Below, piece by piece: positions 1 through 48,542 of a stretch of DNA of 64,000 nt. The notes under the pieces are model-generated. The model saw nothing but the letters and a program-made list of their open reading frames with translations, was not told where the DNA came from and searched no databases. The position numbers were made by a program, and so were the translations under genes. Every line of letters starts with the position of its first letter. The stretch's first letter is position 1. The stretch lies in contig JACOXI010000005.1 in the NCBI GenBank assembly GCA_016176335.1, forward strand, positions 63,391 through 127,390. The letters run 5' to 3'. The stretch comes from Candidatus Daviesbacteria bacterium (GTDB taxonomy: Bacteria; Patescibacteriota; Microgenomatia; Daviesbacterales; UBA10151).

Positions 1-119
1 TCGGATTTTGGTAAATCCCTGACATGTCCCATTGAGGCTTCTATTTGATACTGGTCGCCCAAAAATTTCTGTAGTGTCCTAGCTTTAGTGGGTGATTCCA
101 CAATAACCAAATTATTCAT
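1..119 (-). CDS. topA: DNA topoisomerase I, N-terminal fragment (runs off window start)
   Basis: Reverse-strand translation from ATG at 119: [39 protein letters not shown]. This matches the Toprim N-terminus of bacterial topoisomerase I. Confidence 0.6.
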
Positions 120-156: not shown

Positions 157-414
157 CTACTCAAAATCAGAGTCTAAAACTTGAGGATTAATTTTTTCCA
201 GTTCTTGTTTTAAATCTGTAGAGGAGTCAAACTTAAAAGTTTTTGGAGCTTGTGGTGGAAGTGGAGTTGGGGTGGGAGAGACAGAAACGTTCTTCAGTCT
301 TCCTAGATTGGGACTGGTAAGACTTTGCACTGCTTCCTTATTTAATTTGACATAAACTAACACGATTGTTACAGATAATGTCAATAATATGATCAAAAGC
401 AGTTTACGGCTCAT
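157..414 (-). CDS. small hypothetical membrane protein (TM then Pro-rich tail)
   Basis: 85 aa ORF with N-terminal hydrophobic helix. Last gene of a same-strand operon with the Clp-like ATPase. Confidence 0.35.
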   Translation of the reverse strand: MSRKLLLIILLTLSVTIVLVYVKLNKEAVQSLTSPNLGRLKNVSVSPTPTPLPPQAPKTFKFDSSTDLKQELEKINPQVLDSDFE

Positions 415-778
415 CCTCTAATACCTTTCCCACCTCATTTTTAGCTCTTAAAACTTTATTCTTCAAAACCTCTAAACTGTATCTTAACTCATTTTTAGAA
501 GAATACTTCTGTGCTCGCTGATAAGCTATTGCTTCTGCAGCATAAGTTATCCAATAATCAGCTGATTTTATGGGTGTATCCACTCCCCCAAAAGCCACCC
601 TGGTTTCTGTAATTCCCTGTCTTCTTCTTACTTCCTCCATAATTGCAGCCAGTCGGGAAACATCATCCTCAAGCCTGCTACAAATTTTTTGATTTACTTC
701 ATCCAAGGTAAACGCATAAACTGGAGACATTGGCAACAACAATAAAAATAAAATAATTACAGGATAAATAATTTTCAT
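404..778 (-). CDS. hypothetical secreted protein (signal peptide)
   Basis: 124 aa ORF with N-terminal signal-like hydrophobic segment. Overlaps start and stop codons with its neighbours (operon). Confidence 0.4.
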   Translation of the reverse strand: MKIIYPVIILFLLLLPMSPVYAFTLDEVNQKICSRLEDDVSRLAAIMEEVRRRQGITETRVAFGGVDTPIKSADYWITYAAEAIAYQRAQKYSSKNELRYSLEVLKNKVLRAKNEVGKVLEDEP

Positions 779-3282
779 CAGGCTAACATCTCCGCGCCTA
801 CTTTAATAACTTGCCCTTTAACCATTTTTTCTTGCAAAATTAACTTGGAAAGTTTGCCCTCTAGGGTATCTTGGATTAAACGGCGTAAGGGCCGGGCTCC
901 TAGCACTGGATCAAAACCGCGCCTGCCAAGTTCAGCAACCAAGCTTTGATCAAATTGAACCAAATATCCTTTTGTTTTTAGATTATTTTGCAAAGCGGAA
1001 AGTTTTAGTGTAACAATTTTTTCCAAATCTATTTGTGACAAAGGCTTAAATAACACCACCTCATCAAACCTGTTTATAAGCTCGGGTTTGAAAGTTTTTA
1101 AAAGTTCATCGTTAACCTGCCTGTCTATTTCATCCAGAGTGCGACCTTGTTGTAACCCTTGAGCAATGATCAGCGAAGCCACGTTTGATGTGGCAATAAT
1201 AATGGTATTTTCAAAATCAATCAGTTTTCCTGCTCCATCAGTTAATCTTCCATCATCCAAAACCTGCAAAAAAAGAGTTAAAACCTTATCATTGGCTTTC
1301 TCAAATTCATCCAAAAGTAATAAAGCATATGGCCTATTCTTTACAGCCTCCGTCAACAATCCACCCTCACTTGGCCCACCTATTAACCTTACTACAGACT
1401 CCGGATTTTGGTACTCGGACATATCAAATCTTAAAAATGCTCCGGCAGTTTTAAAGTATACATCTGCCAAAGTTTTGGCCAGCTCGGTTTTACCAACTCC
1501 TGTCGGTCCTACAAATAAAAATGAACCAATTGGTCTGCCGTCCTCGTTCATGCCGGTTGCAGATCTCCTTAAAGCATCAGACACCCCCTTGACTGCTTGC
1601 TCCTGACCAATCAACCTGTGATGAAGTTCTTGCTCAAAATGCAAAAGCCGAAGTTTATCCACTGTCCCGACTTCCCAAATCGGCACTTTGACCCTGGATG
1701 ACACAACTTTCCTGACAATATCTCCTGTTACCCAGCCGTTCACAGATTTTGTCATGGCTTCTTTCAAAACCGAAATTGCGGAATCCGGCAAAACCCGATC
1801 ATGTACCAATTTTTTAGCTAAATCTATGGCAGTTTTTATGGCAATAAAAGAAATTTTGAGTTTATCCGTTCTCTCGGCATTAATACTTCTATATTCCAAA
1901 ACTTCCAGAGTTTCCTCATCCGTTGCGGCAGGCATTTCAATTTTTCTAAAAATTCTGGCAAATGAACCATTTTTCTCTAAAATTCTGGAATAATTTTCCG
2001 GCTCTGTTGTGCCTACAAATTGGAAAGTATCGGATTCAAGGTAGGGCTGAAGCAGAGAATATAGATTTAAACTGCTACCAACCTCCCCTACTCCCAACTG
2101 GTGAATTTCATCAATAACAATAATGATATTTTGGGCAAAAGACACTTCTTCAAAGATATTTTTAATCCTGTCTGCCAGATCGCCTTGGGTGCGCATTCCT
2201 GATAAGAGTTTTGTTAAATCCAAACTGACCACCCTTTTTGTGGCAAGTGATAAAGGTGCATCACCGGCAATGATCATCTTGGCCAAATGCCTTATCAGTG
2301 TGGATTTGCCGCAACCTGCGGGGCCAACCAAAATAACATTCCGACCGGAGGTCTGCGATAAAATATTTACCACCTCGGAAACAACAGACGAAGATCTGAC
2401 AAATCTGGCGCTTGTTTCTTTGCTGACCAACTTTGTCAAATCATCTCCCACCACATCCAAAGCAGGAGTAGGCACCCCAAGCCAGCCCCTGTTCACCCCT
2501 TTTAAGTGACGTACGCTGAAATCATCATCCCAAATCCACACTTTTCTCCAAAATTCCCTCTTTCTTTCCAAATAATATAGGGCTCCCAAAAAATCTGCCG
2601 GTTTTAGATCAAGTTTTAAAAGGGCATTTTCAATATTGGGAACATCTAAAATAGCCGCTACAAAAAAATGTCTTGGGCCAATATGTGCGCTGCCAATCTT
2701 TTTTGCATACTCAAATGCACTTCTGCCTGTTTTCTCCGGGTTACTGATCTCAAATTGTGGAAGGCTCTGAAGTTGCAGCTCTAAATTTGCCAGAAGATCC
2801 AAAACTTCTCTTCGAGCTAACAGCTTTTTTAATGTTAGGTCCTGACTTTTAACTGATGCCGCATCCCAAAAACTATCATTTGCGATCTGCCAGACTTTTT
2901 TATGTGGTAGAGAACTGATCTGAATTATAAAAAGACCTACTCCCGATAAAAAAATAATTCTGCTTAAAAATGGCGGCGTATCCAAAATGGCCAAAACCGG
3001 CAAGGACAACCAATATCCGGCTATGGCCAAAAGAACGATAGTTGCGATGATAAATGCAAATAAACCTATTAGAATCCGCAGAGTGCGGAAGAGAAAACTT
3101 AAGAATCTACCCACAAAGGTGGAATCATGAAAAAGAGGAACAAACAAGAGCCGCATCATGAGCTTTACCGCCAAATCTTCTTCCAGATAAAGCATCAAAT
3201 TCTTCCATGTCCGAACAAAAAACTGTATACCTTCAGGATACCAAAACTCGATTAAATATACGGGCAGTTTCAAGTATTTCAT
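778..3282 (-). CDS. membrane-anchored Clp-family double AAA+ ATPase (ClpA/B/C-like)
   Basis: 834 aa. Two Walker A motifs (GPAGCGKST, GPTGVGKTELAKT). Clp D2 signature (LLLDEFEKA...IIATSN). One Clp_N-like repeat (HIGPRHFFVAAILD). N-terminal about 130 aa hold two predicted TM helices. Confidence 0.8.
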   Translation of the reverse strand: MKYLKLPVYLIEFWYPEGIQFFVRTWKNLMLYLEEDLAVKLMMRLLFVPLFHDSTFVGRFLSFLFRTLRILIGLFAFIIATIVLLAIAGYWLSLPVLAILDTPPFLSRIIFLSGVGLFIIQISSLPHKKVWQIANDSFWDAASVKSQDLTLKKLLARREVLDLLANLELQLQSLPQFEISNPEKTGRSAFEYAKKIGSAHIGPRHFFVAAILDVPNIENALLKLDLKPADFLGALYYLERKREFWRKVWIWDDDFSVRHLKGVNRGWLGVPTPALDVVGDDLTKLVSKETSARFVRSSSVVSEVVNILSQTSGRNVILVGPAGCGKSTLIRHLAKMIIAGDAPLSLATKRVVSLDLTKLLSGMRTQGDLADRIKNIFEEVSFAQNIIIVIDEIHQLGVGEVGSSLNLYSLLQPYLESDTFQFVGTTEPENYSRILEKNGSFARIFRKIEMPAATDEETLEVLEYRSINAERTDKLKISFIAIKTAIDLAKKLVHDRVLPDSAISVLKEAMTKSVNGWVTGDIVRKVVSSRVKVPIWEVGTVDKLRLLHFEQELHHRLIGQEQAVKGVSDALRRSATGMNEDGRPIGSFLFVGPTGVGKTELAKTLADVYFKTAGAFLRFDMSEYQNPESVVRLIGGPSEGGLLTEAVKNRPYALLLLDEFEKANDKVLTLFLQVLDDGRLTDGAGKLIDFENTIIIATSNVASLIIAQGLQQGRTLDEIDRQVNDELLKTFKPELINRFDEVVLFKPLSQIDLEKIVTLKLSALQNNLKTKGYLVQFDQSLVAELGRRGFDPVLGARPLRRLIQDTLEGKLSKLILQEKMVKGQVIKVGAEMLA

Positions 3283-3288
3283 ACTCCA

Positions 3289-3648
3289 CTACTTCGCTCT
3301 CACAAAATTACCATCAATATCAAGTTCCACAAAATGCTTTGCACTGCCTTCAACATATGCGGAGCATTGATTTTCCAAAAGATCATCAATCGCTTTTCGG
3401 GGCCGGTGTACAATATCAACTACCCAACCGGGCATTAAGGCATTAGACAAACAAGGACCGTTTGAAAAATCCTCCCCTCTCATTTTTTTCTGATTATAAA
3501 AGTATTTTGCCTGATTTATGGCGGTATCAAGTTCCCTCTTTGGGACCACCTCCGAAGAGCCGATATTAAATACCAAAGTGAGATAGGCTGTCAGCAGGAT
3601 CACTATTAAAGCCAGGATAAAGACAATTCTTTTGGGCATCAACTTCAT
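3289..3648 (-). CDS. hypothetical membrane protein
   Basis: ORF with TM helix (IVFILALIVILLTAYLTLVF). Start trimmed to internal Met to avoid overlap with dprA. Confidence 0.35.
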   Translation of the reverse strand: MKLMPKRIVFILALIVILLTAYLTLVFNIGSSEVVPKRELDTAINQAKYFYNQKKMRGEDFSNGPCLSNALMPGWVVDIVHRPRKAIDDLLENQCSAYVEGSAKHFVELDIDGNFVRAK

Positions 3649-3652
3649 TATC

Positions 3653-4735
3653 TCATATTCTGCAATATGTCCCGTTACCCAAGTTTTGCACCAAACCCGC
3701 AATCTCCATTTTTAATAGTGTGCCGGAAACTTGCGCAGCAGACATTTTTAAATTTCTGCAAATCTCATCCATATGCAATTGTTCATTTCCCAAATACTCC
3801 AAAATCTTCTTCTCCTCTTCTGAAAGATTAACATCATTTGTATTTTTGATATTTGAATTTTGATTTTGTTTGAAACCCATTTCCTCCAAAATCTCTTGAG
3901 GGTCAAAAATGGGCCTTGCCCCTTCTTTCATTAAATCTACCGGGCCGCGGGATAAAGTGGATGTGACAGGACCCGGCACTGCAAAAACTTCCCTTCCTTG
4001 CTCCAAAGCTATACGAGCCGTAATTAACGAACCGGAATCTTCTGCTGCCTCAACCACTAAAACTCCCAAAGACAGTCCTGAAATAATTCTGTTTCTTGCG
4101 GGAAAATTGCCAGGCATTGACGGGTAATCAGGCGGAAATTCGGATAGTACTAATCCCCCTCTATCAATGATTCTCTCCGCCAGAGACCTGTTTTCCGGAG
4201 GGTAGATATTTTTCAACCCTCCCCCCAAAACAGCGATAGTCCTGCCTCCAGCTCTGATTGTTGATAAATGTGCTTCCGCATCTATCCCTCTTGCCAGTCC
4301 CGAAACAATAGTTAGCCCCCCGTCAACCAACCTTTTAACAAACTGCTCTGTCACTGCCCGGCCATAGCCTGTGATCTTTCTTGTTCCCACAACAGCGATA
4401 GCTTTTTCATCCTTTTTAATCTGCCCTTTATAATAAATCACGACCGGCGGATCATAAATTTGTTTTAATAGGTACGGATAGTGTTCATCAAAAATAGTCA
4501 ACCAGGAAATGCCTGCTTTCTTAATAGACTCTGCATAAAGGGCAGGGTCAAGTTTCCTCCTCTCTGCTGCCAGAAGATCCGCTACATTTTGCGGTATTCC
4601 AATTTCCCTAATCACTCCAATATTTGCCTCCCAGGCAAGGCGCGGATCTTTAAAATAATTTAAAATAGCCTTAAGCCTGATTGGCCCCAGCCCATCTATG
4701 GAATGAAGAGCCAGAAGATACGGAATGTTTCCCAT
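3653..4735 (-). CDS. dprA: DNA processing protein DprA/Smf
   Basis: 360 aa. Rossmann-fold DprA core (GLARGIDAEAHLSTIRAGGRTIAVLGGGL), N-terminal HhH/SAM-like part and C-terminal winged-helix-like tail. Confidence 0.85.
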   Translation of the reverse strand: MGNIPYLLALHSIDGLGPIRLKAILNYFKDPRLAWEANIGVIREIGIPQNVADLLAAERRKLDPALYAESIKKAGISWLTIFDEHYPYLLKQIYDPPVVIYYKGQIKKDEKAIAVVGTRKITGYGRAVTEQFVKRLVDGGLTIVSGLARGIDAEAHLSTIRAGGRTIAVLGGGLKNIYPPENRSLAERIIDRGGLVLSEFPPDYPSMPGNFPARNRIISGLSLGVLVVEAAEDSGSLITARIALEQGREVFAVPGPVTSTLSRGPVDLMKEGARPIFDPQEILEEMGFKQNQNSNIKNTNDVNLSEEEKKILEYLGNEQLHMDEICRNLKMSAAQVSGTLLKMEIAGLVQNLGNGTYCRI

Positions 4736-7082: not shown

Positions 7083-7871
7083 TTACTCCCCTATTACAAA
7101 CACTAACTCCAGATCCCTGATATCAAAAATCTGTTCTACTTTTGCCTGTTTGAAGATCTCATTCTCTCTGCTTAAAACTTCTTTTACCCTGCCTAAAATT
7201 AATCCTCTTGGTAAAAATCCTTCCGTTCCTTCGGAATAAACCAAATCCCCCACAGTAATTTCTTCCTCATGCAAAATTTTATCCATCAAGAGGTCTGTTC
7301 CAAACTGGCCCAACAAAACACCTTTAGCCCGTCTTTCTTTCCCGATGGAAAAAGCGGATACTTTTGAATCCGGATCTGTCAGCAGTTGAATTAAACTGGC
7401 CTTTTCCGAAACCTGAATTATTTTGCCTACATAGTTGTCGTTTACCACCACCGCCTGGTTTTGTGCGACTTTGGAGATTTGCCCTTGATCGATTTTTAAA
7501 TACCTGCCTAAACCAATAGGCCTTGCTGCTATCAGATTATAAGTTCCTGCATCAATATACTTTTCCTGTGAGATTTGAGCTTCTGTCTCTGACAGTCTTT
7601 TGCGCAAAGTGGCGTTTTCTGAAAGTAACTCCCCTAATTGTGCCTTTAACGCCTTGTTTTCTTGGGCAGCGAAGCGGGCCAAGAAAACAAAATTTAATTG
7701 GCTGATGGATTTGTTTGATGACTTATATAAGCCGAAAGATACCGGATTAGTGATATAAAAAGCCCATTGCTTTGGCAAACTTAAAAGATTTAAACTATCA
7801 AGTAGTATTAATGCCAAAGAGGCAAAAAACAAAATAAGAAAAATTTGTAAGTTGGGGACAGCCTTTATCAT
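7083..7871 (-). CDS. mreC: rod shape-determining protein MreC
   Basis: 262 aa. N-terminal TM, coiled-coil segment and beta-rich C-terminal domain. Conserved position between mreD and PBP2. Confidence 0.7.
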   Translation of the reverse strand: MIKAVPNLQIFLILFFASLALILLDSLNLLSLPKQWAFYITNPVSFGLYKSSNKSISQLNFVFLARFAAQENKALKAQLGELLSENATLRKRLSETEAQISQEKYIDAGTYNLIAARPIGLGRYLKIDQGQISKVAQNQAVVVNDNYVGKIIQVSEKASLIQLLTDPDSKVSAFSIGKERRAKGVLLGQFGTDLLMDKILHEEEITVGDLVYSEGTEGFLPRGLILGRVKEVLSRENEIFKQAKVEQIFDIRDLELVFVIGE

Positions 7872-12310: not shown

Positions 12311-13375
12311 CTAACGGAGTCCCCCGGTTACCCTGACCTTGGAAAGCAAATCTAAATTTTCCAGCACTTCACCGCAGCCCCTGACAACTGAAGTTAGGGG
12401 ATCATCCGCAATATAAACCGGCAATTTTGTTTCCTCCGCAATTTTTTTATCCAATCCACGAATGAGCGCTCCTCCCCCTGCCAAGTAGACTCCGCGTTCC
12501 ACAATATCAGTGAGCAGCTCCGGAGGAGTTTCTTCTAAAACTTCTTGGATGGCGGAAACTATTTGAGAAATTGTCGGAGTTAAGGCTTCTCTTATTTCTG
12601 AAGCTGTAATCTTTAAAGATTTAGGCAGACCTGATGCTAAATCCCGGCCGCGGACAACAGTTGCCAAATCATCTTTACCCAAAGGGTATGCTGAACCAAT
12701 CTCAATCTTGGCCTCCTCTGCACTCTTCTCACCAATCAGCATGCCATATCTTATCCTCATGTAATTTACAATTGCCTCATCCAACTCATCTCCTGCCACC
12801 CGCAAAGATTTATTTATCACCATCCCTCCAAGTGAGATTACAGCGATCTCTGCAGTGCCCCCCCCAATATCCACCATCATCACTCCTTCCGGTTCTTCAA
12901 CCGGCAGTTTTGCTCCAATTGCTGCTGCCATAGGCTCTTCTATCAAATATGCTTCTCTTGCTCCGGCCGAAAGACATGCATCTTGTACTGCCCTTCTTTC
13001 CACTTCTGTCACGCCTGAAGGAATTCCTACAACAATTCTTGGTTTGGGAATTTTAGGCAAAGAAAAAAAGCCGCCTTTTCCAGGGGTTTGGTGAACCTTA
13101 TGGATAAAATAACGGAGCATTGCCTCGGTGGTATCAAAGTCAGAGATTACTCCATCCCGTAACGGGCGTACTGTCTCAATAGCCGCAGGAGTTCTCCCCA
13201 GCATTCTTTTAGCCTCCACCCCAATTGCCAAAACCTGCCTGGTCTTTTTGTGCAGCGCCACCACAGTGGGCTCGCGGATTAAAATCCCTTTGCCTTTAAC
13301 TAAAACTAAAGTATTAACTGTGCCTAAATCAATGCCGATATCATGGGAAAAAAATTGCCAAAACTTATCTAACAT
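12311..13375 (-). CDS. mreB: rod shape-determining protein MreB
   Basis: 354 aa. Actin-fold motifs (IGIDLGT, DIGGGTAEIAV). Confidence 0.9.
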   Translation of the reverse strand: MLDKFWQFFSHDIGIDLGTVNTLVLVKGKGILIREPTVVALHKKTRQVLAIGVEAKRMLGRTPAAIETVRPLRDGVISDFDTTEAMLRYFIHKVHQTPGKGGFFSLPKIPKPRIVVGIPSGVTEVERRAVQDACLSAGAREAYLIEEPMAAAIGAKLPVEEPEGVMMVDIGGGTAEIAVISLGGMVINKSLRVAGDELDEAIVNYMRIRYGMLIGEKSAEEAKIEIGSAYPLGKDDLATVVRGRDLASGLPKSLKITASEIREALTPTISQIVSAIQEVLEETPPELLTDIVERGVYLAGGGALIRGLDKKIAEETKLPVYIADDPLTSVVRGCGEVLENLDLLSKVRVTGGLR

Positions 13376-37136: not shown

Positions 37137-40100
37137 ATGGTTAGCCCAAAAAAATCTCTGGTGGCCATTATTGGCCTGATAGCAGTTTCCCTGTGGATTT
37201 TAATTCCCCAGTCTGCTTTTGCCACTTCAAGTAAATATTATGATTTTGGCCCATATTATGGCGGTTCTTCTGTTTTAGGTTTTTCCTTCTCCAACTTGGA
37301 AAACCTGCCTGTCCCTCAAATTGCGGATAGCCTGATGCCACCTAAAGCAGGCGGTATTTTGCCTGACAATCCTTTTTATGCTTTGGAAAAGGTGGTGGAG
37401 AATGTCCAACTTACTTTTACATTTGATCCTGTAAAAAAAGAGCAGTTGAGGCTTGATATTGCTAGCGAAAGATTATCTGAAGCTAAAACTTTAATGGATC
37501 AAGGTAAAACCCAAGCAGCCTCTCAAGCCCTGGATGATTACGGCCAGACCTTAACTGCCCTCAGCCAAAATCTAGCGGCCATTGCTCAAAGAACCGATCC
37601 TGCTGCCCAAGCTTTAGTCAACAAAGCAGAGGAGGTATCTGCTACCCAGGCAGTGGTTACTCAAGCCTTAAGTTTAACTTCTTCTCCTGCTCAAGCTGAA
37701 AGCTGGACCCAAGCCACCAACATCACCAGATACTCTCTTGACAAGGTAGCCGAGGCCAAAGGCGAACCTGCTATACCTACGGAGTTTTCTTCCAGTATCC
37801 AACAACTCAAAGAACAGGGGCTGATTTCGGAAGAAGAAAGTAATAAGTTATACAGTTTCAAAAACCGAAGCGAAGTCAGGGACGAGCTTAACAAACTCTC
37901 TTCCTCGGGCCAATTTCCTATTTCGGAAGCTGTTAGATTAGACGATGCTGTCACCAAATATTTCCCGGATGTACAGAAACAGTACCTAACTAATTTACAG
38001 GTTGTAGAATTAAAATCCTATCAAACTTTACCCCAGCCTGACAGCAAAACGGCAGAAGAGCTGAAAAAGTGGCAAGCTAATCCAGCTACCCCCCCATCAA
38101 ATGATATCAAACCATATTTGTGGTATAACCGAGCCCAGGATTTAGCCCGCGATGTTGACCTGTCGAACTTTTCACCAACCCAGCAGGGAGACTTAGTCAA
38201 ATTCTACCCTCAAGCTGTTCAAACTAACCCAACTTATTCCCCTCCGCCCAGCCCTTCTCCTGTACCAGCTGACGCCTCGCCTGCCCCCTCACCCACCTCT
38301 GCTGTTCCTGCCTCACCTACACCTTCCCCCACACCTCCTGCTGCCGAACCTTATCTGCAAGGTACAGGTGGAGCTTTGCCTGGTGAGCCTTTCTATTTTA
38401 TAAAGCAGTGGGGAGAGGGTTTAACCTATACCTTTACTTTTGATCCGGCCCAGAAAGCCAGACTGAGGATGCAGGAGGCTGAACGCCGTCTGGCTGAAGC
38501 CGAAGCACTGGCCAATGATCCCAAGAAAGCCACCTTATATGAATCTACCCTCAAAAGTTACCAGCAAACTCTCGCTGATGCTTCAAACATCGTCAAAAAT
38601 CTGAAAGATACCAAAGCATCTGAAGAGGCGGCAGCCAGATTAGAAGCTCAGGCAGCCAGACATGAGGTGGTTTTTGAAAAAGGGCTCTTGCCTCCTCCTC
38701 CTCAAAATCCCACACTGACCTCTGATGTTATCAGGACAGCGGAGGATGCCATGGACAGAAGCGCTGATGTTTTGGACCGACCGGCGCTGCCGCCTGTCTT
38801 GGCCTCTCGTCTGCAAGATCTCAAAGCCCAGGGCCTGATCCTGCCTGAAGAAGCAGAAGATTTAACCCGATCTGCTTCGCGAGAAGAGGCGCGGGAAAAA
38901 ATTAGAAAATTGGTTGAGCTTAACACTTTTCCCCCGGCTGATGCCAAAAAACTGGATGAAGCCCAAGCTGTAGTTTCCCCTGCAGACTACAATCAGCTGG
39001 TGGAGGTCAGGAAAGTTGAGGAGTTGCAAAGTTTGAGATCAGTCCAAACTGATCTGGCTCAAACTCCCACCTTAAGATCCACAGCCACCACTTTAGCCCA
39101 AAAGGAGGTGGCTTTAACTAACTCTTTTGATCCTACACTGATCAAACCAGAAGATCTAGGAGGTAAAGAAAACTTAATTAAAGCCTATGAAAGACTGACA
39201 GCGGTTCCTCGTCCTATTAATGGCGGGCAATTTGGTCCCGAAGTCACACCTGGCGCTCAACCATCAGCTACTCCCAGACCTCAAGATGCGGTTTTGTCTG
39301 CTTGTCCTGAGGGGGCTACCTTCAAACAATCTGAAGGCTGTATTTGGGCAGATAATGGCAAGCGGATTAATGATTATGACCAGTATAAATGTGAAGGCCC
39401 AAGACAATATTATTCTTTTGCTGTTAAGAAATGTGTGGCTTCTGACTCAACTCGCGGTTATCAAGAAGATGCCCAGCCAATCTGTCCAGTAGGTTATTCC
39501 TGGAACTGGCAGGCTCAAAGCTGTCAGACAGCAACAGGCGGGATTCTTCCTTTCCCCAGCCCCTCGCCTGTAGTAGACCCTATTAATGATGAGGAACGAG
39601 AGGCCAGGTCAAAGAGTTGTCCTGAGGGAGCCTCCTATCAACCGCCCAATGGCTGTGTTTGGGATAAAACTGGCAAATCAGTTTATGATCCTGAGCAATA
39701 TAGATGCGGTCGAGGTCAATACTATTCATTTGAGGAAGGGAAATGTGTTGCCTCGCCAAAAGAGGGAGAACCTTATCCCAAAAATACCACTCCAGTTTGT
39801 AAAGAAGATGGAGCTTATTGGAGTTGGAACGAAGGAAAATGTATTCAAGCTGTTTTTCCATCAGAGCAAAAAGGAGGACCGGGGGCAATTATAATTGATG
39901 AGTTTAGACCTCCTTTTATCGCTCCCAACAGTCCATTCTATATTATTAAACAAGCAGCGGAAAGAGTACAACTTGCTATAGCATTTACTGCCCCAGCCAG
40001 AGAACGAGTCAGCTTGTCTCAAGCTAAAGAAAGATTAATTGAAGCTGCGGACGCTCTAAAAAGAAATGATGAAGGAGCTGTTAAAAAAGCTTTAGACACT

Positions 40101-41801
40101 TATACTTCTATGATGCAGGATATTGTATCTGACGTATCTAAGGAACAGCTGACAGAGGGGGCCAAAATCGAAATCGGGAAGCTGTTAGCCGAGAAATCAG
40201 TTGAGCAAAACCTGCTATTGCAGAAGCTTCAAGCTTTGGCCCCAAGTGCACAAGATACGGCCATCAGTGCTGCGGTATCAGCCACCATCTTAGGGGTGGA
40301 TAAAGCAGCAGATGTTGCTGGCGAGCCGCCAATTCCAGATGAACTCAGAAGCAAAATTGAAGCTTTGCCGGAAAAGATGATCTCAGAAGAAGACAAAAAG
40401 AAACTTTTGGAGATGAAGTCTCGAGTTGAAGCCAGACTCCAAATAGGAGGCTTGGTAGCAAACGGGGCTTTAACCCAAACTGACACCAGCTTCTTAAATG
40501 AGGATTTTGATGCTGTTGATCAAAACGCCAGAATCAAGGTGGAGGAACTCAAAAAACTAGAGGAGATTGCCGATGCTGCCGAGACCAAAGATAAACTGGA
40601 AGAAAAGATAGGTAAGAACGAAGAAATTGCCCAAAAACTCCAAGACTTTGAGAAAACCTTTGAGCCGGGCAAAGAGGTACCAGCTGAAATCCGTCCTTAT
40701 ATCCGGCTAACCCGCATTAACGAGATAGCCCAAACCGTCAGACCCGATACTATCAACCTTGAAGACTTCTCAAACCGCAAGGATCTTATGTTGGCAGTAG
40801 CCACTCTACAGGAAGAATACAGGCCCACCATAGATGCTTTAAGACAAGTAGAAGACTTTAGAAGAAGAAATCCCAATGCTGCCTTGCCGCTTACTTTGGC
40901 CCGGGTTGCGGCTTTATCCGTAAGCCTTGGGGTAAGAGAAAAAGCCGGACCATGTTATCTACCAACACCCCTCTTCCCGGCCAACACCCCTTGTCCGGCG
41001 CCGGGAGCAGCCATCCCCATTAGTTCCTTTACCGGGATCGGGCCTACCATTGTTGATGAGTTTCGCCCCGGCTGGCCAGGTTCAGCATATCCGTCAGCCT
41101 ATCAAACAGGTCCTACTACCGATAAAGATGGCAATCCCTTAGTCTATGGCCAAGGGCCTCAACCAACCAGCGCCGGGGTTTGTCCTTCAGGTTCTCACTG
41201 GATGTATGATAGTGGTGGCTGGTGTATGTCAAACAGTGGCAACTACAGTTCCTCCTATTCCTACACGCCTTCTGGCACTGGTTCCGGTTACACCCCTTAT
41301 AGTCCTTATTACACTGCCCCGGGAGCGCCTCCGGCAAGCTATGGCTACCCAGGATCCGGTTCTTATTCTAACTTCATAAACACTTACTCGCCTCCAAATT
41401 ACTGGAGTCCTGCCCCCACCAATTACACTACCACCCCACCTACTGGCACGGTGCCAGGATCTGGACCCAGGCCAACTGCTCCTGGTCAGTGTCCATCAGG
41501 GTATCATTGGATGTCTGATTCCGGTGGCTGGTGTATGGCTGACGGACCAACCTATGTACCCAGCGGCTCACCATACAATTATCCGGCGGGTACAACTACC
41601 AGTGGCGTGCCGTCAGGAAGCTTGAATTGCGGCTCCCAGAGCTTTAATCCGGCTACCGGAAGGTGCAATGATGGCGCCTGCCCCGGAGGCTTTAACTGGG
41701 ACGGCTCAAGATGTGTAGCCAGCAGTCCCAGTTACTATTCTCCTAACTTAAACCGGATATTACTGGGATGGCAGAGGCTGTATTCGCACAAGCCCTACTG
41801 A
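37137..41801 (+). CDS. giant secreted modular cysteine-rich protein (N-terminal 1554 aa before frameshift)
   Basis: Signal peptide. Three ~55-aa modules (P.NPFY.L/IK...TFTFDP...A.ERL.EA). Four Cys-rich ~45-aa modules (CPEG...C.W...GK..YD...Y.C....YYSF...KCVAS). G/S/Y/T-rich tail with CPSG[SY]HWM.DSGGWCM repeats. Confidence 0.7.
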   Translation: MVSPKKSLVAIIGLIAVSLWILIPQSAFATSSKYYDFGPYYGGSSVLGFSFSNLENLPVPQIADSLMPPKAGGILPDNPFYALEKVVENVQLTFTFDPVKKEQLRLDIASERLSEAKTLMDQGKTQAASQALDDYGQTLTALSQNLAAIAQRTDPAAQALVNKAEEVSATQAVVTQALSLTSSPAQAESWTQATNITRYSLDKVAEAKGEPAIPTEFSSSIQQLKEQGLISEEESNKLYSFKNRSEVRDELNKLSSSGQFPISEAVRLDDAVTKYFPDVQKQYLTNLQVVELKSYQTLPQPDSKTAEELKKWQANPATPPSNDIKPYLWYNRAQDLARDVDLSNFSPTQQGDLVKFYPQAVQTNPTYSPPPSPSPVPADASPAPSPTSAVPASPTPSPTPPAAEPYLQGTGGALPGEPFYFIKQWGEGLTYTFTFDPAQKARLRMQEAERRLAEAEALANDPKKATLYESTLKSYQQTLADASNIVKNLKDTKASEEAAARLEAQAARHEVVFEKGLLPPPPQNPTLTSDVIRTAEDAMDRSADVLDRPALPPVLASRLQDLKAQGLILPEEAEDLTRSASREEAREKIRKLVELNTFPPADAKKLDEAQAVVSPADYNQLVEVRKVEELQSLRSVQTDLAQTPTLRSTATTLAQKEVALTNSFDPTLIKPEDLGGKENLIKAYERLTAVPRPINGGQFGPEVTPGAQPSATPRPQDAVLSACPEGATFKQSEGCIWADNGKRINDYDQYKCEGPRQYYSFAVKKCVASDSTRGYQEDAQPICPVGYSWNWQAQSCQTATGGILPFPSPSPVVDPINDEEREARSKSCPEGASYQPPNGCVWDKTGKSVYDPEQYRCGRGQYYSFEEGKCVASPKEGEPYPKNTTPVCKEDGAYWSWNEGKCIQAVFPSEQKGGPGAIIIDEFRPPFIAPNSPFYIIKQAAERVQLAIAFTAPARERVSLSQAKERLIEAADALKRNDEGAVKKALDTYTSMMQDIVSDVSKEQLTEGAKIEIGKLLAEKSVEQNLLLQKLQALAPSAQDTAISAAVSATILGVDKAADVAGEPPIPDELRSKIEALPEKMISEEDKKKLLEMKSRVEARLQIGGLVANGALTQTDTSFLNEDFDAVDQNARIKVEELKKLEEIADAAETKDKLEEKIGKNEEIAQKLQDFEKTFEPGKEVPAEIRPYIRLTRINEIAQTVRPDTINLEDFSNRKDLMLAVATLQEEYRPTIDALRQVEDFRRRNPNAALPLTLARVAALSVSLGVREKAGPCYLPTPLFPANTPCPAPGAAIPISSFTGIGPTIVDEFRPGWPGSAYPSAYQTGPTTDKDGNPLVYGQGPQPTSAGVCPSGSHWMYDSGGWCMSNSGNYSSSYSYTPSGTGSGYTPYSPYYTAPGAPPASYGYPGSGSYSNFINTYSPPNYWSPAPTNYTTTPPTGTVPGSGPRPTAPGQCPSGYHWMSDSGGWCMADGPTYVPSGSPYNYPAGTTTSGVPSGSLNCGSQSFNPATGRCNDGACPGGFNWDGSRCVASSPSYYSPNLNRILLGWQRLYSHKPY

Positions 41802-47525: not shown

Positions 47526-48542
47526 TTAGCGCTTAGAAACCGACCGCTTATATAAATCCAAATTTTCCAAAGCAATGCCTGTGCCTAAGGCCACACACAG
47601 CAGTGGGTTTTCTGCCAAAGCCGCAGGTACCCCCAAAGAATCTGTTAAATGTTTATCCAAATTCCTAAGCAGCGACGTCCCGCCGCTCATCACAATTCCT
47701 TTATCAATAATGTCTGATGCCAGCTCCGGTGGAACTTGCTCTAAAACCTCTTTAACTGCCCCGATTATTTTGTGTGTTATATCGGCAATTGCCTCCGTTA
47801 CCTCATCACTGTTTATTTCAACTGTCCGAGGCAATCCTGAAAAAGCATCTCTGCCTCTCACCTCTGCTTTTTCAACTTCGGCAGGTTTAAGTTTGACTGC
47901 AGAACCAATCTTTATTTTTACATCTTCCGCCATTCTTTCCCCAATTATCAAATTATGCTTTTTGCGAACATAAGTTTGGATAGCCTCATCAATTTTATTG
48001 CCGCCAACCCGAACAGACGAGTGAACTACCACTCCTCCCAAACAAATCACCGCGGCCTCTGTGGTCCCTCCGCCAATATCCACAATCATATTGCCGGAAG
48101 GATTGGCAATGGGGATCCTGGCTCCGATTGCGGCAGCTAGAGGCTCGTCAATCAAAAAAGCTGTTTTTGCCCCAGCTGAAAGTGTGGCATCCAAAATTGC
48201 TCTTTTTTCCACAGATGTCACTCCGGCCGGTGCACAAACCATCACCTCCGGTTTAAAAATCCTGCTTGGTCCGCACACCTTGTCCAAAAAATAGCGGATC
48301 ATGGCTTCGGTGATCACATAATCCGCAATAACCCCGTCTTTCATCGGACGGGAAGCAATAATATTTCCAGGAGTTCTTCCCAACATCTCTTTGGCCTCAT
48401 TACCAACAGCCAACACCCGAGCATCATCTGTGGTGATTGCCACCACTGTCGGCTCATTGAGAACTATTCCTGTTCCCGCCAAGTAAACTAAGGAGTTTGC
48501 AGTACCTAAATCAATACCAACTCTTTTGGATAAGCCAAACAT
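47526..48542 (-). CDS. MreB/Mbl-family actin-like protein (second paralog)
   Basis: 338 aa. Motifs GIDLGTANSLVY and DIGGGTTEAAVI. Confidence 0.85.
   Translation of the reverse strand: MFGLSKRVGIDLGTANSLVYLAGTGIVLNEPTVVAITTDDARVLAVGNEAKEMLGRTPGNIIASRPMKDGVIADYVITEAMIRYFLDKVCGPSRIFKPEVMVCAPAGVTSVEKRAILDATLSAGAKTAFLIDEPLAAAIGARIPIANPSGNMIVDIGGGTTEAAVICLGGVVVHSSVRVGGNKIDEAIQTYVRKKHNLIIGERMAEDVKIKIGSAVKLKPAEVEKAEVRGRDAFSGLPRTVEINSDEVTEAIADITHKIIGAVKEVLEQVPPELASDIIDKGIVMSGGTSLLRNLDKHLTDSLGVPAALAENPLLCVALGTGIALENLDLYKRSVSKR

What the first reader, a model, noticed from the sequence alone, without database searches (positions are those of the whole stretch)
157..3282. Membrane-anchored double-AAA+ Clp-like ATPase in an operon with two small secreted/membrane proteins
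Canonical ClpA/B/C proteins are soluble. This one has about 130 N-terminal residues with two predicted TM helices, a single Clp_N-like repeat, and both AAA+ modules. It is followed on the same strand, with overlapping stops and starts, by a 124-aa signal-peptide protein and an 85-aa single-TM protein. A membrane-tethered unfoldase with dedicated small partners could be a quality-control or extraction machine that is uncommon outside this lineage.
Basis: partly seen in the sequence, partly recalled or inferred. Interest (0 to 1): 0.55.

Follow-up and report, generated by a model that had tools for sequence, protein, structure and literature searches.

The report
Membrane-anchored Clp ATPase lacking pore tyrosines
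This gene encodes a membrane-anchored, two-ring Clp/Hsp100 ATPase found only in the ultra-small Patescibacteria (CPR), and it has lost every feature that lets known Clp proteins thread, degrade or disaggregate proteins, so it probably works differently from its relatives.

Summary
On the minus strand, 778-3282 encodes an 834-aa protein with two AAA+ modules. Its N-terminus has two TM helices and one detectable Clp_N repeat. A 124-aa signal-peptide protein (404-778) and an 85-aa single-TM protein (157-414) follow with overlapping stops and starts. The protein is 100% identical to a Candidatus Daviesbacteria record.

Among 194 family members none has the D1 pore-loop tyrosine. None has the D2 GYVG loop, which is physically deleted here. 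There is no M-domain and no ClpP-docking loop. All D2 catalytic residues are invariant. A ClpB-like disaggregase or a classical threading unfoldase is therefore unlikely.

The first ~100 residues are a previously undescribed helical-hairpin membrane module (AF2 pLDDT 95) with no Pfam or NCBIfam match. In other lineages this module is a separate ~115-aa gene immediately upstream of the Clp-like gene, which marks it as the real conserved partner.

The two small downstream proteins occur in only 9 of 56 related loci, all Daviesbacteria-like, so they are lineage-specific accessories.

Best reading: a membrane-tethered, ClpP- and Hsp70-independent remodelling ATPase driven by D2. It is a new variant of a known kind, and I found no literature on it.

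The parts
778..3282 (-). Clp/Hsp100-like double-AAA+ ATPase, 834 aa, membrane-anchored
   Evidence: ORF. Pfam AAA, AAA_lid_9, AAA_2 and ClpB_D2-small. 100% identical to NCBI 'AAA family ATPase [Candidatus Daviesbacteria bacterium]'. AF2 model pLDDT 83. Foldseek best matches are ClpC, ClpC1, ClpB and ClpA with TMt about 0.8.
2971..3282 (-). N-module (residues 1-104): long helical hairpin plus TM1. Signature F..WY...LD...A....R..F.PL[FY].D.[ST]..GR..gF.FR..Ri..G-TM-W...P
3124..3147 (-). Most conserved N-module motif LFVPLFHD (residues 46-53). P49 is invariant and D53 nearly so
   Evidence: The pattern [LF]FVPLF[HGQ]Dx[TS] retrieved 56 CPR loci.
3007..3075 (-). TM helix 1 (about residues 70-92)
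   Evidence: Hydropathy, AF2 helix 56-92, positive-inside charge pattern.
2911..2967 (-). TM helix 2 (about residues 106-124)
   Evidence: Hydropathy, AF2 helix 106-124, K/R-rich segment after it.
2548..2871 (-). Degenerate Clp_N-type N-domain (residues 138-245). Only the second repeat (about 186-236, window 2575-2727) is recognisable by sequence
   Evidence: Family profile A6 against PDB sequences: ClpC N-domain E 1.9e-9, with one profile segment matching both ClpC repeats. AF2 helices 138-245.
2437..2547 (-). Family-specific conserved linker W251..GVNRGW..TP.LD (residues 246-282). Modelled as coil
   Evidence: Invariant W251, G262 and T272, near-invariant N264, R265 and P273. No secondary structure at 246-272 in the AF2 model.
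1747..2436 (-). AAA+ module D1 (residues about 283-512). Walker A GPAGCGKS and Walker B IDEIH are intact, only one Arg of the ERRF pair remains, and no M-domain is inserted
2182..2202 (-). D1 pore-1 loop SGMRTQG. The ClpB KYRG tyrosine is replaced by T365
   Evidence: Ungapped alignment to ClpB/ClpC1. 0 of 194 members have an aromatic residue here.
781..1650 (-). AAA+ module D2 plus D2-small (residues about 545-834). K598, D658, E659, N700, R738 and R797 are invariant in 194 members. No ClpP-docking loop
1357..1383 (-). Truncated D2 pore-1 loop IGGPSEGGL. Six residues including GYVG are deleted relative to ClpB GAPPGYVGYEEGG
   Evidence: alignment. 144 of 194 members share this 9-residue form, 7 have an even shorter one, and none has GYVG.
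404..778 (-). p124: predicted exported helical protein (hydrophobic N-terminus ending VYA|F), translationally coupled to clp
   Evidence: 62% identical counterpart in L001. Present in 9 of 56 loci. No Pfam, NCBIfam, PADLOC or PHROGs hit.
157..414 (-). p85: N-terminal TM anchor, Pro/Thr-rich linker and a conserved acidic C-terminus DSSTDL.QEL..INP.VLD.DFE
   Evidence: Always co-occurs with p124.
3289..3648 (-). p119 (137 aa if the TTG at 3702 is used): TM anchor plus a small two-Cys domain, encoded just upstream of clp
   Evidence: Found in 23 of 56 loci, in 22 of them just upstream of clp, all Daviesbacteria-like.

Best explanation
The gene encodes a member of a Patescibacteria (CPR)-restricted subfamily of two-ring Clp/Hsp100 ATPases.

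Shown:
- An N-terminal helical-hairpin module and two TM helices hold the protein in the cytoplasmic membrane, N-in and C-in. A degenerate Clp_N domain and both AAA+ rings therefore face the cytoplasm.
- D2 keeps every catalytic residue. D1 is partly degenerate.
- There is no M-domain, no ClpP-docking loop and no tyrosine-bearing pore-1 loop in either ring.
- The N-module is a separate gene directly upstream of the ATPase gene in other lineages.

Inferred:
- The protein forms a membrane-bound hexamer, because the trans-acting Arg finger is invariant. D2 is its motor.
- It is not coupled to ClpP or to DnaK.
- It does not act as a canonical hand-over-hand polypeptide translocase. It most likely remodels or releases a membrane-proximal client that is held through the Clp_N domain or the N-module rather than by aromatic pore paddles.
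- The N-module is its obligate membrane partner.
- p124 and p85 are translationally coupled exported accessories acquired by one Daviesbacteria subgroup. They are not core components.
For: Identity and architecture.

Loss of canonical working parts:
- Alignment to ClpB and ClpC1.
- 31 diverse members.
- 194 members: 0 aromatic at the D1 Tyr position, a D2 loop of 9 residues in 144 and 3 residues in 7, none with GYVG, and D2 residues K598, D658, E659, N700, R738 and R797 100% invariant.
- Recurrent independent deletions of 6 and 12 residues in the D2 loop point to relaxed constraint.

Membrane anchoring.

N-module as partner (gene fission/fusion):
- 59 of the 132 N-terminal hits are ~100-160-aa proteins matching only residues ~10-100.
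- In L007/8, L054, L062, L065/66 and L067 the standalone gene is followed, with a 4-20 nt overlap or a 6-nt gap, by a TM-containing Clp-like gene. These are 825 and 859 aa where complete.

Housekeeping context rather than an island:
- mreB..mreC-PBP2-dprA-p119-clp-p124-p85-topA here and in L001.
- clp-prfB with overlapping stop and start in many other CPR lineages.

Accessory status of p124/p85.
Against: - No biochemical data exist.
- Loss of aromatic pore residues argues against classical threading but does not prove that translocation is absent. Other pore-facing residues could grip a client, for example the K/R-T pair kept in D1.
- Topology and signal peptides rest on hydropathy, charge bias and AF2, not on a dedicated predictor or an experiment.
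- No client has been identified.
- I could not check whether the same genomes also carry ClpP, ClpB or ClpC. Only the 64-kb window was searched.
- The taxonomy of the split-gene lineages is not established.
Confidence: 0.5

Rival explanations
1. It is still a substrate-threading unfoldase or extractase. On this view it is a membrane-protein quality-control machine analogous to FtsH or Msp1 that pulls proteins out of the membrane, using non-aromatic pore loops.
For: Both rings keep Walker A/B motifs and D2 keeps all catalytic residues. The overall fold superposes on substrate-bound ClpC, ClpB and ClpA. The protein is membrane-anchored and sits next to genes for exported or membrane proteins in several lineages. 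D1 keeps a conserved basic residue followed by Thr or Ser in the pore loop.
Against: The D2 pore-1 loop, the main translocating element in ClpA, ClpB and Hsp104 by established knowledge, is deleted by 6-12 residues in about 78% of members and is non-aromatic in the rest. No aromatic residue occupies the D1 position in any of 194 members. Only about 13 residues are exposed outside the membrane.
Confidence: 0.25
2. In this Daviesbacteria subgroup it forms a dedicated machine together with p124, p85 and perhaps p119. For example it could energise the assembly or turnover of these exported proteins.
For: Stop and start codons overlap, which suggests translational coupling. p124 and p85 always co-occur and always lie directly downstream of clp in the 9 GTDB loci, in L001-L003 and in this window. 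The small proteins are conserved at 46-62% identity while clp is at 65%.
Against: p124 and p85 are absent from 47 of 56 related loci, including many other Daviesbacteria whose ATPase is otherwise the same. The ATPase exposes almost nothing outside the membrane, so any contact would have to go through TM segments. None of the small proteins has a recognisable domain.
Confidence: 0.15
3. It is a ClpB-like, DnaK-dependent protein disaggregase that happens to be membrane-tethered.
For: There is no ClpP loop. The D2 region around the ClpP-loop site aligns without gaps to T. thermophilus ClpB. The best NCBIfam and PDB sequence hits are to ClpB.
Against: There is no M-domain, which is the Hsp70-docking element that defines ClpB/Hsp104. 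The pore tyrosines are lost. The score of 472 bits is far below the ClpB cut-off of 1232.
Confidence: 0.04
4. It is the ATPase partner of ClpP, as many database records name it ('ATP-dependent Clp protease ATP-binding subunit').
For: The D1-D2 spacing is ClpA-like, with a single aligned stretch 302-828 against ClpA 196-733. Sources give it this name.
Against: There is no IGL/IGF/LGF loop, and gaps fall exactly at the ClpC1 LGF loop. The ClpA model scores 439 against a cut-off of 993. No ClpP is encoded in the window.
Confidence: 0.03

Closest known systems
ClpA / ClpC (class-I Hsp100 ATPases that partner with ClpP)
   Same: N-terminal Clp_N-type domain, two AAA+ modules and a D2-small domain. 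The D1-D2 spacing matches ClpA, with no long coiled coil. The predicted fold superposes with TMt about 0.8 and 36% identity.
   Different: Membrane-anchored. No ClpP-docking IGL/LGF loop. No ClpC half M-domain. No pore-loop tyrosines. Only one recognisable Clp_N repeat. Scores below the family cut-off.
ClpB / Hsp104 disaggregases
   Same: Highest sequence scores. No ClpP loop. The ClpB_D2-small domain is present.
   Different: No M-domain, so no Hsp70 coupling. Pore tyrosines are lost. Membrane-anchored.
Torsins (eukaryotic ER/nuclear-envelope AAA+ proteins related to Clp D2). Functional analogy only, recalled from the literature, e.g. PMC4999309 and PMC5425593 listed (titles and abstracts seen, papers not read)
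   Same: A Clp-D2-type ATPase that is membrane-associated through an N-terminal hydrophobic segment, lacks aromatic pore-loop residues and depends on membrane-protein partners.
   Different: Torsins have a single AAA+ module, sit in the ER lumen and lack their own arginine finger. This protein has two modules, is cytoplasmic and keeps R738 in all members. No specific homology is claimed.
FtsH and Msp1/ATAD1 (membrane-anchored AAA+ extractases and proteases)
   Same: N-terminal TM anchor with the AAA+ ring on the cytoplasmic face.
   Different: Those have a single AAA module of the classical clade with aromatic pore loops, and FtsH carries an M41 protease domain. None of these features is present here.

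Membership tests
Clp/Hsp100 class I (two-ring) superfamily | AAA (D1), AAA_2 (D2) and ClpB_D2-small domains in one chain | tested here: met
   Pfam: AAA 76.5 bits, AAA_2 169 bits, ClpB_D2-small 72 bits, all above gathering score. Fold match to ClpC, ClpB and ClpA.
Clp/Hsp100 class I (two-ring) superfamily | Tyrosine-bearing pore-1 loops (KYRG in D1, GYVG in D2) | tested here: not met
   T365 replaces the D1 Tyr and the D2 loop is deleted. 0 of 194 members have these motifs.
ClpB / Hsp104 | Coiled-coil M-domain inserted in the D1 small domain | tested here: not met
   Query 511->521 corresponds to ClpB 390->526. The insert site is 9-14 residues long in 191 of 194 members.
ClpB / Hsp104 | Score at or above the NCBIfam TIGR03346 cut-off | tested here: not met
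   472 bits against a cut-off of 1232.
ClpA / ClpC / ClpE (ClpP partners) | ClpP-docking IG[FL]/LGF loop in D2 | tested here: not met
   Gaps at the ClpC1 LGF loop and an ungapped alignment to ClpB there. No insertion in 31 diverse members.
ClpA / ClpC / ClpE (ClpP partners) | N-domain with two Clp_N repeats | tested here: inconclusive
   One repeat is detected by profile (E 1.9e-9). The region before it has three short helices in the AF2 model and may be a degenerate first repeat. Pfam on the single sequence is negative.
ClpA / ClpC / ClpE (ClpP partners) | Score at or above the NCBIfam ClpA (TIGR02639) cut-off | tested here: not met
   439 bits against a cut-off of 993.
ClpV / TssH (type VI secretion) | Score at or above the TIGR03345 cut-off, and a T6SS gene context | tested here: not met
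   354 bits against a cut-off of 885. The neighbours are mreC, PBP2, dprA and topA.
FtsH-type membrane AAA+ protease | Peptidase M41 domain after a single AAA module | tested here: not met
   No peptidase domain among the 25 best Pfam hits shown, and residues 283-834 are fully accounted for by D1, D2 and D2-small. The NCBIfam FtsH model scores 24 bits against a cut-off of 1008.
Anti-phage defence AAA+ systems (PADLOC) | Full-length match to a defence-system protein, and a defence-island context | tested here: not met
   Only D2-domain-level similarity (PDC-M37B and DolB, residues 533-703). The small proteins have no hit. The flanks are housekeeping genes.

The most novel reading that the evidence does not exclude
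This CPR-specific family is a non-threading, membrane-embedded Hsp100 machine, a bacterial counterpart of torsin. Its invariant D2 motor would drive remodelling of a membrane or envelope-associated assembly, or of a non-protein polymer, through a previously undescribed helical-hairpin membrane subunit rather than by pulling a polypeptide through the pore. If so, the Clp/Hsp100 scaffold has been repurposed for a mechanism not known in bacteria.
Probability: 0.3. Interest if true: 0.8.

Novelty: new variant of a known kind. Interest (0 to 1): 0.62.

Why it matters
Clp/Hsp100 proteins are a textbook example of AAA+ machines that thread polypeptides with tyrosine pore loops. All characterised bacterial members that I know of are soluble.

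This family is conserved and sits among housekeeping genes. It keeps a perfect D2 ATPase but has discarded the pore tyrosines, the M-domain and the ClpP loop, and it has gained a dedicated membrane subunit. That makes it a natural test of what an Hsp100 ring can do without threading.

It also gives a handle on envelope or membrane biology in the CPR/Patescibacteria, where most lineage-specific proteins have no known function. In practical terms, the public names 'ATP-dependent Clp protease ATP-binding subunit' and 'ClpA/ClpC' are likely misleading. The ~100-residue N-module deserves its own family definition.

Tried and rejected
- searching the word-indexed protein database with the N-terminal 276 aa returned only 8 truncated fragments and cost one search.
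- Pfam on the N-terminal halves found nothing and did not detect Clp_N. A profile search was needed instead.
- alignment A4 was too diverse for the search for related loci. A narrower alignment (A5) worked, but its pattern [LF]FVPLF[HGQ]Dx[TS] biases the 56 loci towards fused, Microgenomates-type members. The share of split systems is therefore underestimated.
- the search with the L007 downstream fragment gave only fragments. One of them carried an AAA_16 hit.
- the AFDB Foldseek library was not available.
- literature searches found no description of a bacterial membrane-anchored Hsp100 or of a CPR Clp. The Saccharibacteria transcriptome paper mentions only host clp genes and one 'predicted clp protease'.
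- no ClpP and no second Clp-type ATPase in the 64-kb window.
- my count of hydrophobic stretches per sequence was inflated by fragmented windows. I use only its minimum (at least 2 in every member) and the charge statistics.
- Rejected: misannotated upstream ORF. The frame is continuous and conserved in more than 150 assemblies.
- Rejected: defence system.
- Rejected: phage origin of the small proteins and the N-module.
Full report
**What is in the window**

All genes of the finding lie on the minus strand:
- an 834-aa ORF at 778-3282;
- a 124-aa ORF at 404-778 (p124);
- an 85-aa ORF at 157-414 (p85).

The clp stop TGA and the p124 ATG share one base (TGATG). p124 and p85 overlap by 11 nt.

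Upstream on the same strand are a small TM protein, dprA and a PBP2-type transpeptidase. The TM protein is p119 at 3289-3648, or 137 aa if the TTG at 3702 is the start. Downstream, the 5' end of topA ([13 protein letters not shown]...) starts at 118 behind its own promoter-like site and runs off the window.

The large protein is 100% identical to an NCBI record named 'AAA family ATPase [Candidatus Daviesbacteria bacterium]'. The organism is therefore a member of the Microgenomates group of the Patescibacteria/CPR.

**Checking the observation**

- Domains: Pfam finds AAA (316-444), AAA_lid_9, AAA_2 (583-742) and ClpB_D2-small (748-828) above gathering score.
- Fold: an AlphaFold2 model built on 51 family members has mean pLDDT 83. 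Its D1-D2 body superposes on ClpC, ClpC1, ClpB and ClpA chains with TM-score about 0.8 and 36% identity.
- TM helices: hydropathy gives two TM-like stretches, about 70-92 and 105-125, and the model shows helices 56-92 and 106-124.
- Topology: across the family, K+R averages 2.8 just before TM1, 0.26 in the 13-residue loop between the helices, and 3.3 just after TM2. In 184 of 193 members, residues 140-834 contain no TM-like stretch. The topology is therefore N-in, a very short outside loop, and C-in, with the ATPase in the cytoplasm.
- Clp_N: Pfam does not see a Clp_N domain in the single sequence. A profile of the region from 22 diverse members matches ClpC, ClpB and ClpA N-domains with best E 1.9e-9. 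One profile segment (window residues about 186-236) aligns to both repeats of ClpC. The three short helices before it may be a degenerate first repeat.
- N-terminus: it is not an annotation artefact. More than 120 clusters at 62-84% identity cover 96-100% of the query. Another 28 full-length representatives at about 24-53% N-terminal identity keep the region.

Alignment to T. thermophilus ClpB and M. tuberculosis ClpC1 shows four things:
1. There is no M-domain. Query 511->521 spans what is 390->526 in ClpB and 408->482 in ClpC1.
2. There is no ClpP-docking loop. Gaps fall exactly at the ClpC1 LGF loop, while the alignment to ClpB is ungapped there.
3. The D1 pore-1 loop KYRG has become MRTQG, with Tyr replaced by T365.
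4. The D2 pore-1 loop GAPPGYVGYEEGG has become GGP------SEGG, a six-residue deletion that removes GYVG.

These are family traits. Among 194 non-identical members:
- The D1 position is T (136), S (25), N (12) or another non-aromatic residue, and never aromatic.
- The D2 loop segment is 9 residues long in 144 members, 3 residues in 7, and full length (15) in only 13. None has GYVG.
- The D2 catalytic residues are invariant in all 194: Walker A K598, Walker B D658 and E659, sensor-1 N700, Arg finger R738 and sensor-2 R797.

D1 is looser. Walker A Lys is present in 189 of 194. The first Walker B acid is Glu in 121 and Asp in 69. The second Arg of the ERRF pair is always hydrophobic.

NCBIfam scores fall far below every subfamily cut-off: ClpB 472 against 1232, ClpA 439 against 993, ClpV 354 against 885.

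**The N-terminal module is a new domain and the true conserved partner**

An exhaustive HMMER search of 1.84 billion cluster representatives with residues 1-276 found only 132 clusters. About half are full-length or fragmentary ATPases. The other 59 are ~100-160-aa proteins that match residues ~10-100 alone.

The fused and standalone copies align well (A4). Their shared signature is F..WY...LD...A....R..F.PL[FY].D.[ST]..GR..gF.FR..Ri..G, then a TM helix, then W...P.

AlphaFold2 models the module with pLDDT 95 as two long helices (3-37 and 56-100). They are joined by a short helix and the conserved LFVPLFHD loop.

Wherever I could read the neighbourhood of a standalone copy, it is followed by another ORF on the same strand, either overlapping it by 4-20 nt, abutting it, or after a 6-nt gap. 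Where enough sequence is available, that ORF encodes a TM-containing Clp-like ATPase:
- L065/L066: 118 aa followed by 825 aa with AAA, AAA_2 and ClpB_D2-small.
- L062 and L054: 106-109 aa followed by 859 aa.
- L007/8 and L067: fragments homologous to the L065 ATPase N-terminus, E 9e-24 and 5e-16.
- L004 and L006: only 38-41 residues of the downstream ORF are available, too few to test.

The split-type ATPases also lack the D1 tyrosine. This fission/fusion pattern is the strongest evidence for a functional partnership in the data set.

**Distribution and context**

A pattern scan of one genome per GTDB species found 56 loci. Every informative label is Patescibacteria: Daviesbacteria, Microgenomates, Beckwithbacteria, WWE3 or 'Patescibacteria group'. 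Some MAGs labelled 'uncultured Gammaproteobacteria' or 'uncultured Saccharibacteria' carry Daviesbacteria-like sequences, so those labels look unreliable.

The gene sits among housekeeping genes:
- Here and in a 65%-identical relative the order is mreB..mreC-PBP2-dprA-p119-clp-p124-p85-topA.
- In WWE3 and several other lineages clp is followed by prfB, in several loci with overlapping stop and start, and in the non-WWE3 loci then by a ~130-175-aa TM protein.
- In WWE3 it is preceded by a signal peptidase and a protein with a SipW-type signal peptide.

PADLOC gives only D2-level similarity to candidate defence ATPases.

**The small 'partners'**

p124 and p85 always occur together, immediately downstream of clp. 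They were found in only 9 of the 56 loci, plus this window and L001-L003. They are absent from many other Daviesbacteria whose ATPase is otherwise the same. p119 occurs in 23 loci, in 22 of them just upstream of clp, and all are Daviesbacteria-like.

The three are conserved at 62%, 46% and 61% identity to their counterparts in a relative whose ATPase is 65% identical. None has a recognisable domain.

Only about 13 residues of the ATPase are exposed outside the membrane. Any contact with these exported proteins would therefore have to go through TM segments. I treat them as lineage-specific accessories that are probably co-expressed, not as defining parts of the system.

**How it most likely works**

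Shown:
- membrane anchoring with a cytoplasmic ATPase;
- a fully conserved D2 active site, including the trans-acting Arg finger;
- a partly degenerate D1;
- loss of the M-domain, the ClpP loop and both tyrosine pore loops;
- an N-module that is fused here and encoded separately elsewhere.

Inferred:
- The protein forms a ring on the inner face of the membrane and D2 powers it.
- It does not hand substrates to ClpP and is not recruited by DnaK in the way ClpB is.
- It is unlikely to be a classical hand-over-hand polypeptide translocase. In ClpA, ClpB and Hsp104 the D2 pore-1 tyrosine is the principal translocating element (established knowledge; see the reviews listed).
- The repeated independent deletions of this loop suggest that it is no longer under selection.

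My best guess (0.5) is a non-threading or weakly threading remodelling ATPase. It would act on a membrane-proximal client held by the Clp_N domain or the N-module.

Rival readings:
- It still extracts or unfolds proteins with non-aromatic loops (0.25).
- It forms a dedicated machine with p124 and p85 in this subgroup (0.15, not exclusive of the others).
- It is a ClpB-like disaggregase (0.04).
- It is a ClpP partner (0.03).

**Comparison with known systems and novelty**

In architecture the protein is closest to ClpA, with an N-domain, D1 and D2 and no M-domain. It differs in having no ClpP loop, a membrane anchor and no pore tyrosines.

Functionally the nearest analogy is torsin, a Clp-D2-like ATPase that is membrane-associated, has no aromatic pore loop and depends on membrane partners. 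Torsin, however, has one AAA+ module and lacks its own Arg finger.

Six literature searches found no description of such a bacterial protein. Databases name it 'AAA family ATPase' or 'ATP-dependent Clp protease ATP-binding subunit'.

I class it as a new variant of a known kind, with an undescribed membrane domain. Interest is 0.62.

Noticed in passing
window 1-118 (-): The 5' end of topA ([23 protein letters not shown]...) follows p85 after about 40 nt, with a promoter-like TTGACA/TATATT pair at 111-145. The gene runs off the window start. The p119-clp-p124-p85 block therefore sits between dprA and topA.
   Followed up: partly
window 2437-2547 (-), residues 246-282: This family-specific linker is very highly conserved: IWD.DF....L.GVNRGW.G..TP.LD, with W251, G262 and T272 invariant. 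AF2 models it as coil. It could be an inter-subunit or partner-binding element, or an in-cis plug.
   Followed up: partly
L046, L051, L053, L056, L057, L059 (WWE3 loci), upstream of clp: In WWE3 the Clp-like gene is preceded by a ~195-aa protein with a SipW-type signal peptide (...AAFTDKAKVLGS...). In L051, L053 and L056 a signal-peptidase-like gene (Pfam S26/S24 in the L005/L056 locus) lies between that protein and clp. The arrangement is reminiscent of tapA-sipW-tasA fibre operons.
   Followed up: no
L037, L038, L041-L044, L046, L050, L051, L053, L057, L059: There is a recurrent operon-like clp -> prfB (RF2) arrangement, directly adjacent and in several loci with overlapping stop and start (one gene intervenes in L057). 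In L037, L038, L041-L044 and L050 a ~130-175-aa single-TM protein follows. The synteny spans several CPR lineages and is unexplained.
   Followed up: partly
L054 and L062: These split-type systems lie directly downstream of groEL. They are followed, with overlapping stop and start, by a 396-398-aa protein that has an N-terminal signal-peptide-like hydrophobic stretch.
   Followed up: no
family alignment, window residue D391: The first acidic residue of the D1 Walker B motif is Glu (hhhhEE) in 121 of 194 members and Asp in 69. The second Arg of the D1 ERRF pair is always hydrophobic. D1 may be a regulatory or weakly active ring.
   Followed up: partly
L009, L011, L013, L015, L017, L018 and others: Several MAG records titled 'uncultured Gammaproteobacteria bacterium' or 'uncultured Candidatus Saccharibacteria bacterium' (binchicken co-assemblies) carry Daviesbacteria-type sequence at 58-76% identity to this N-module. 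Their organism labels look unreliable.
   Followed up: no
L007 3233-3577: A WhiB-family gene lies on the same contig as a split-type N-module + Clp-like pair (46% GC). The lineage of the split systems is unknown and may lie outside the Microgenomates.
   Followed up: no
window 12311-13375 (-) and 47526-48542 (-): Judging by their N-terminal sequences, there are two MreB-like genes in the same 64-kb window. An mreC-like ORF lies at 7083-7871 next to PBP2.
   Followed up: no
window 37137-41801 (+): A 1554-aa ORF with an N-terminal signal-anchor-like segment, followed by a 237-aa Cys-rich ORF. They may encode a large surface protein.
   Followed up: no
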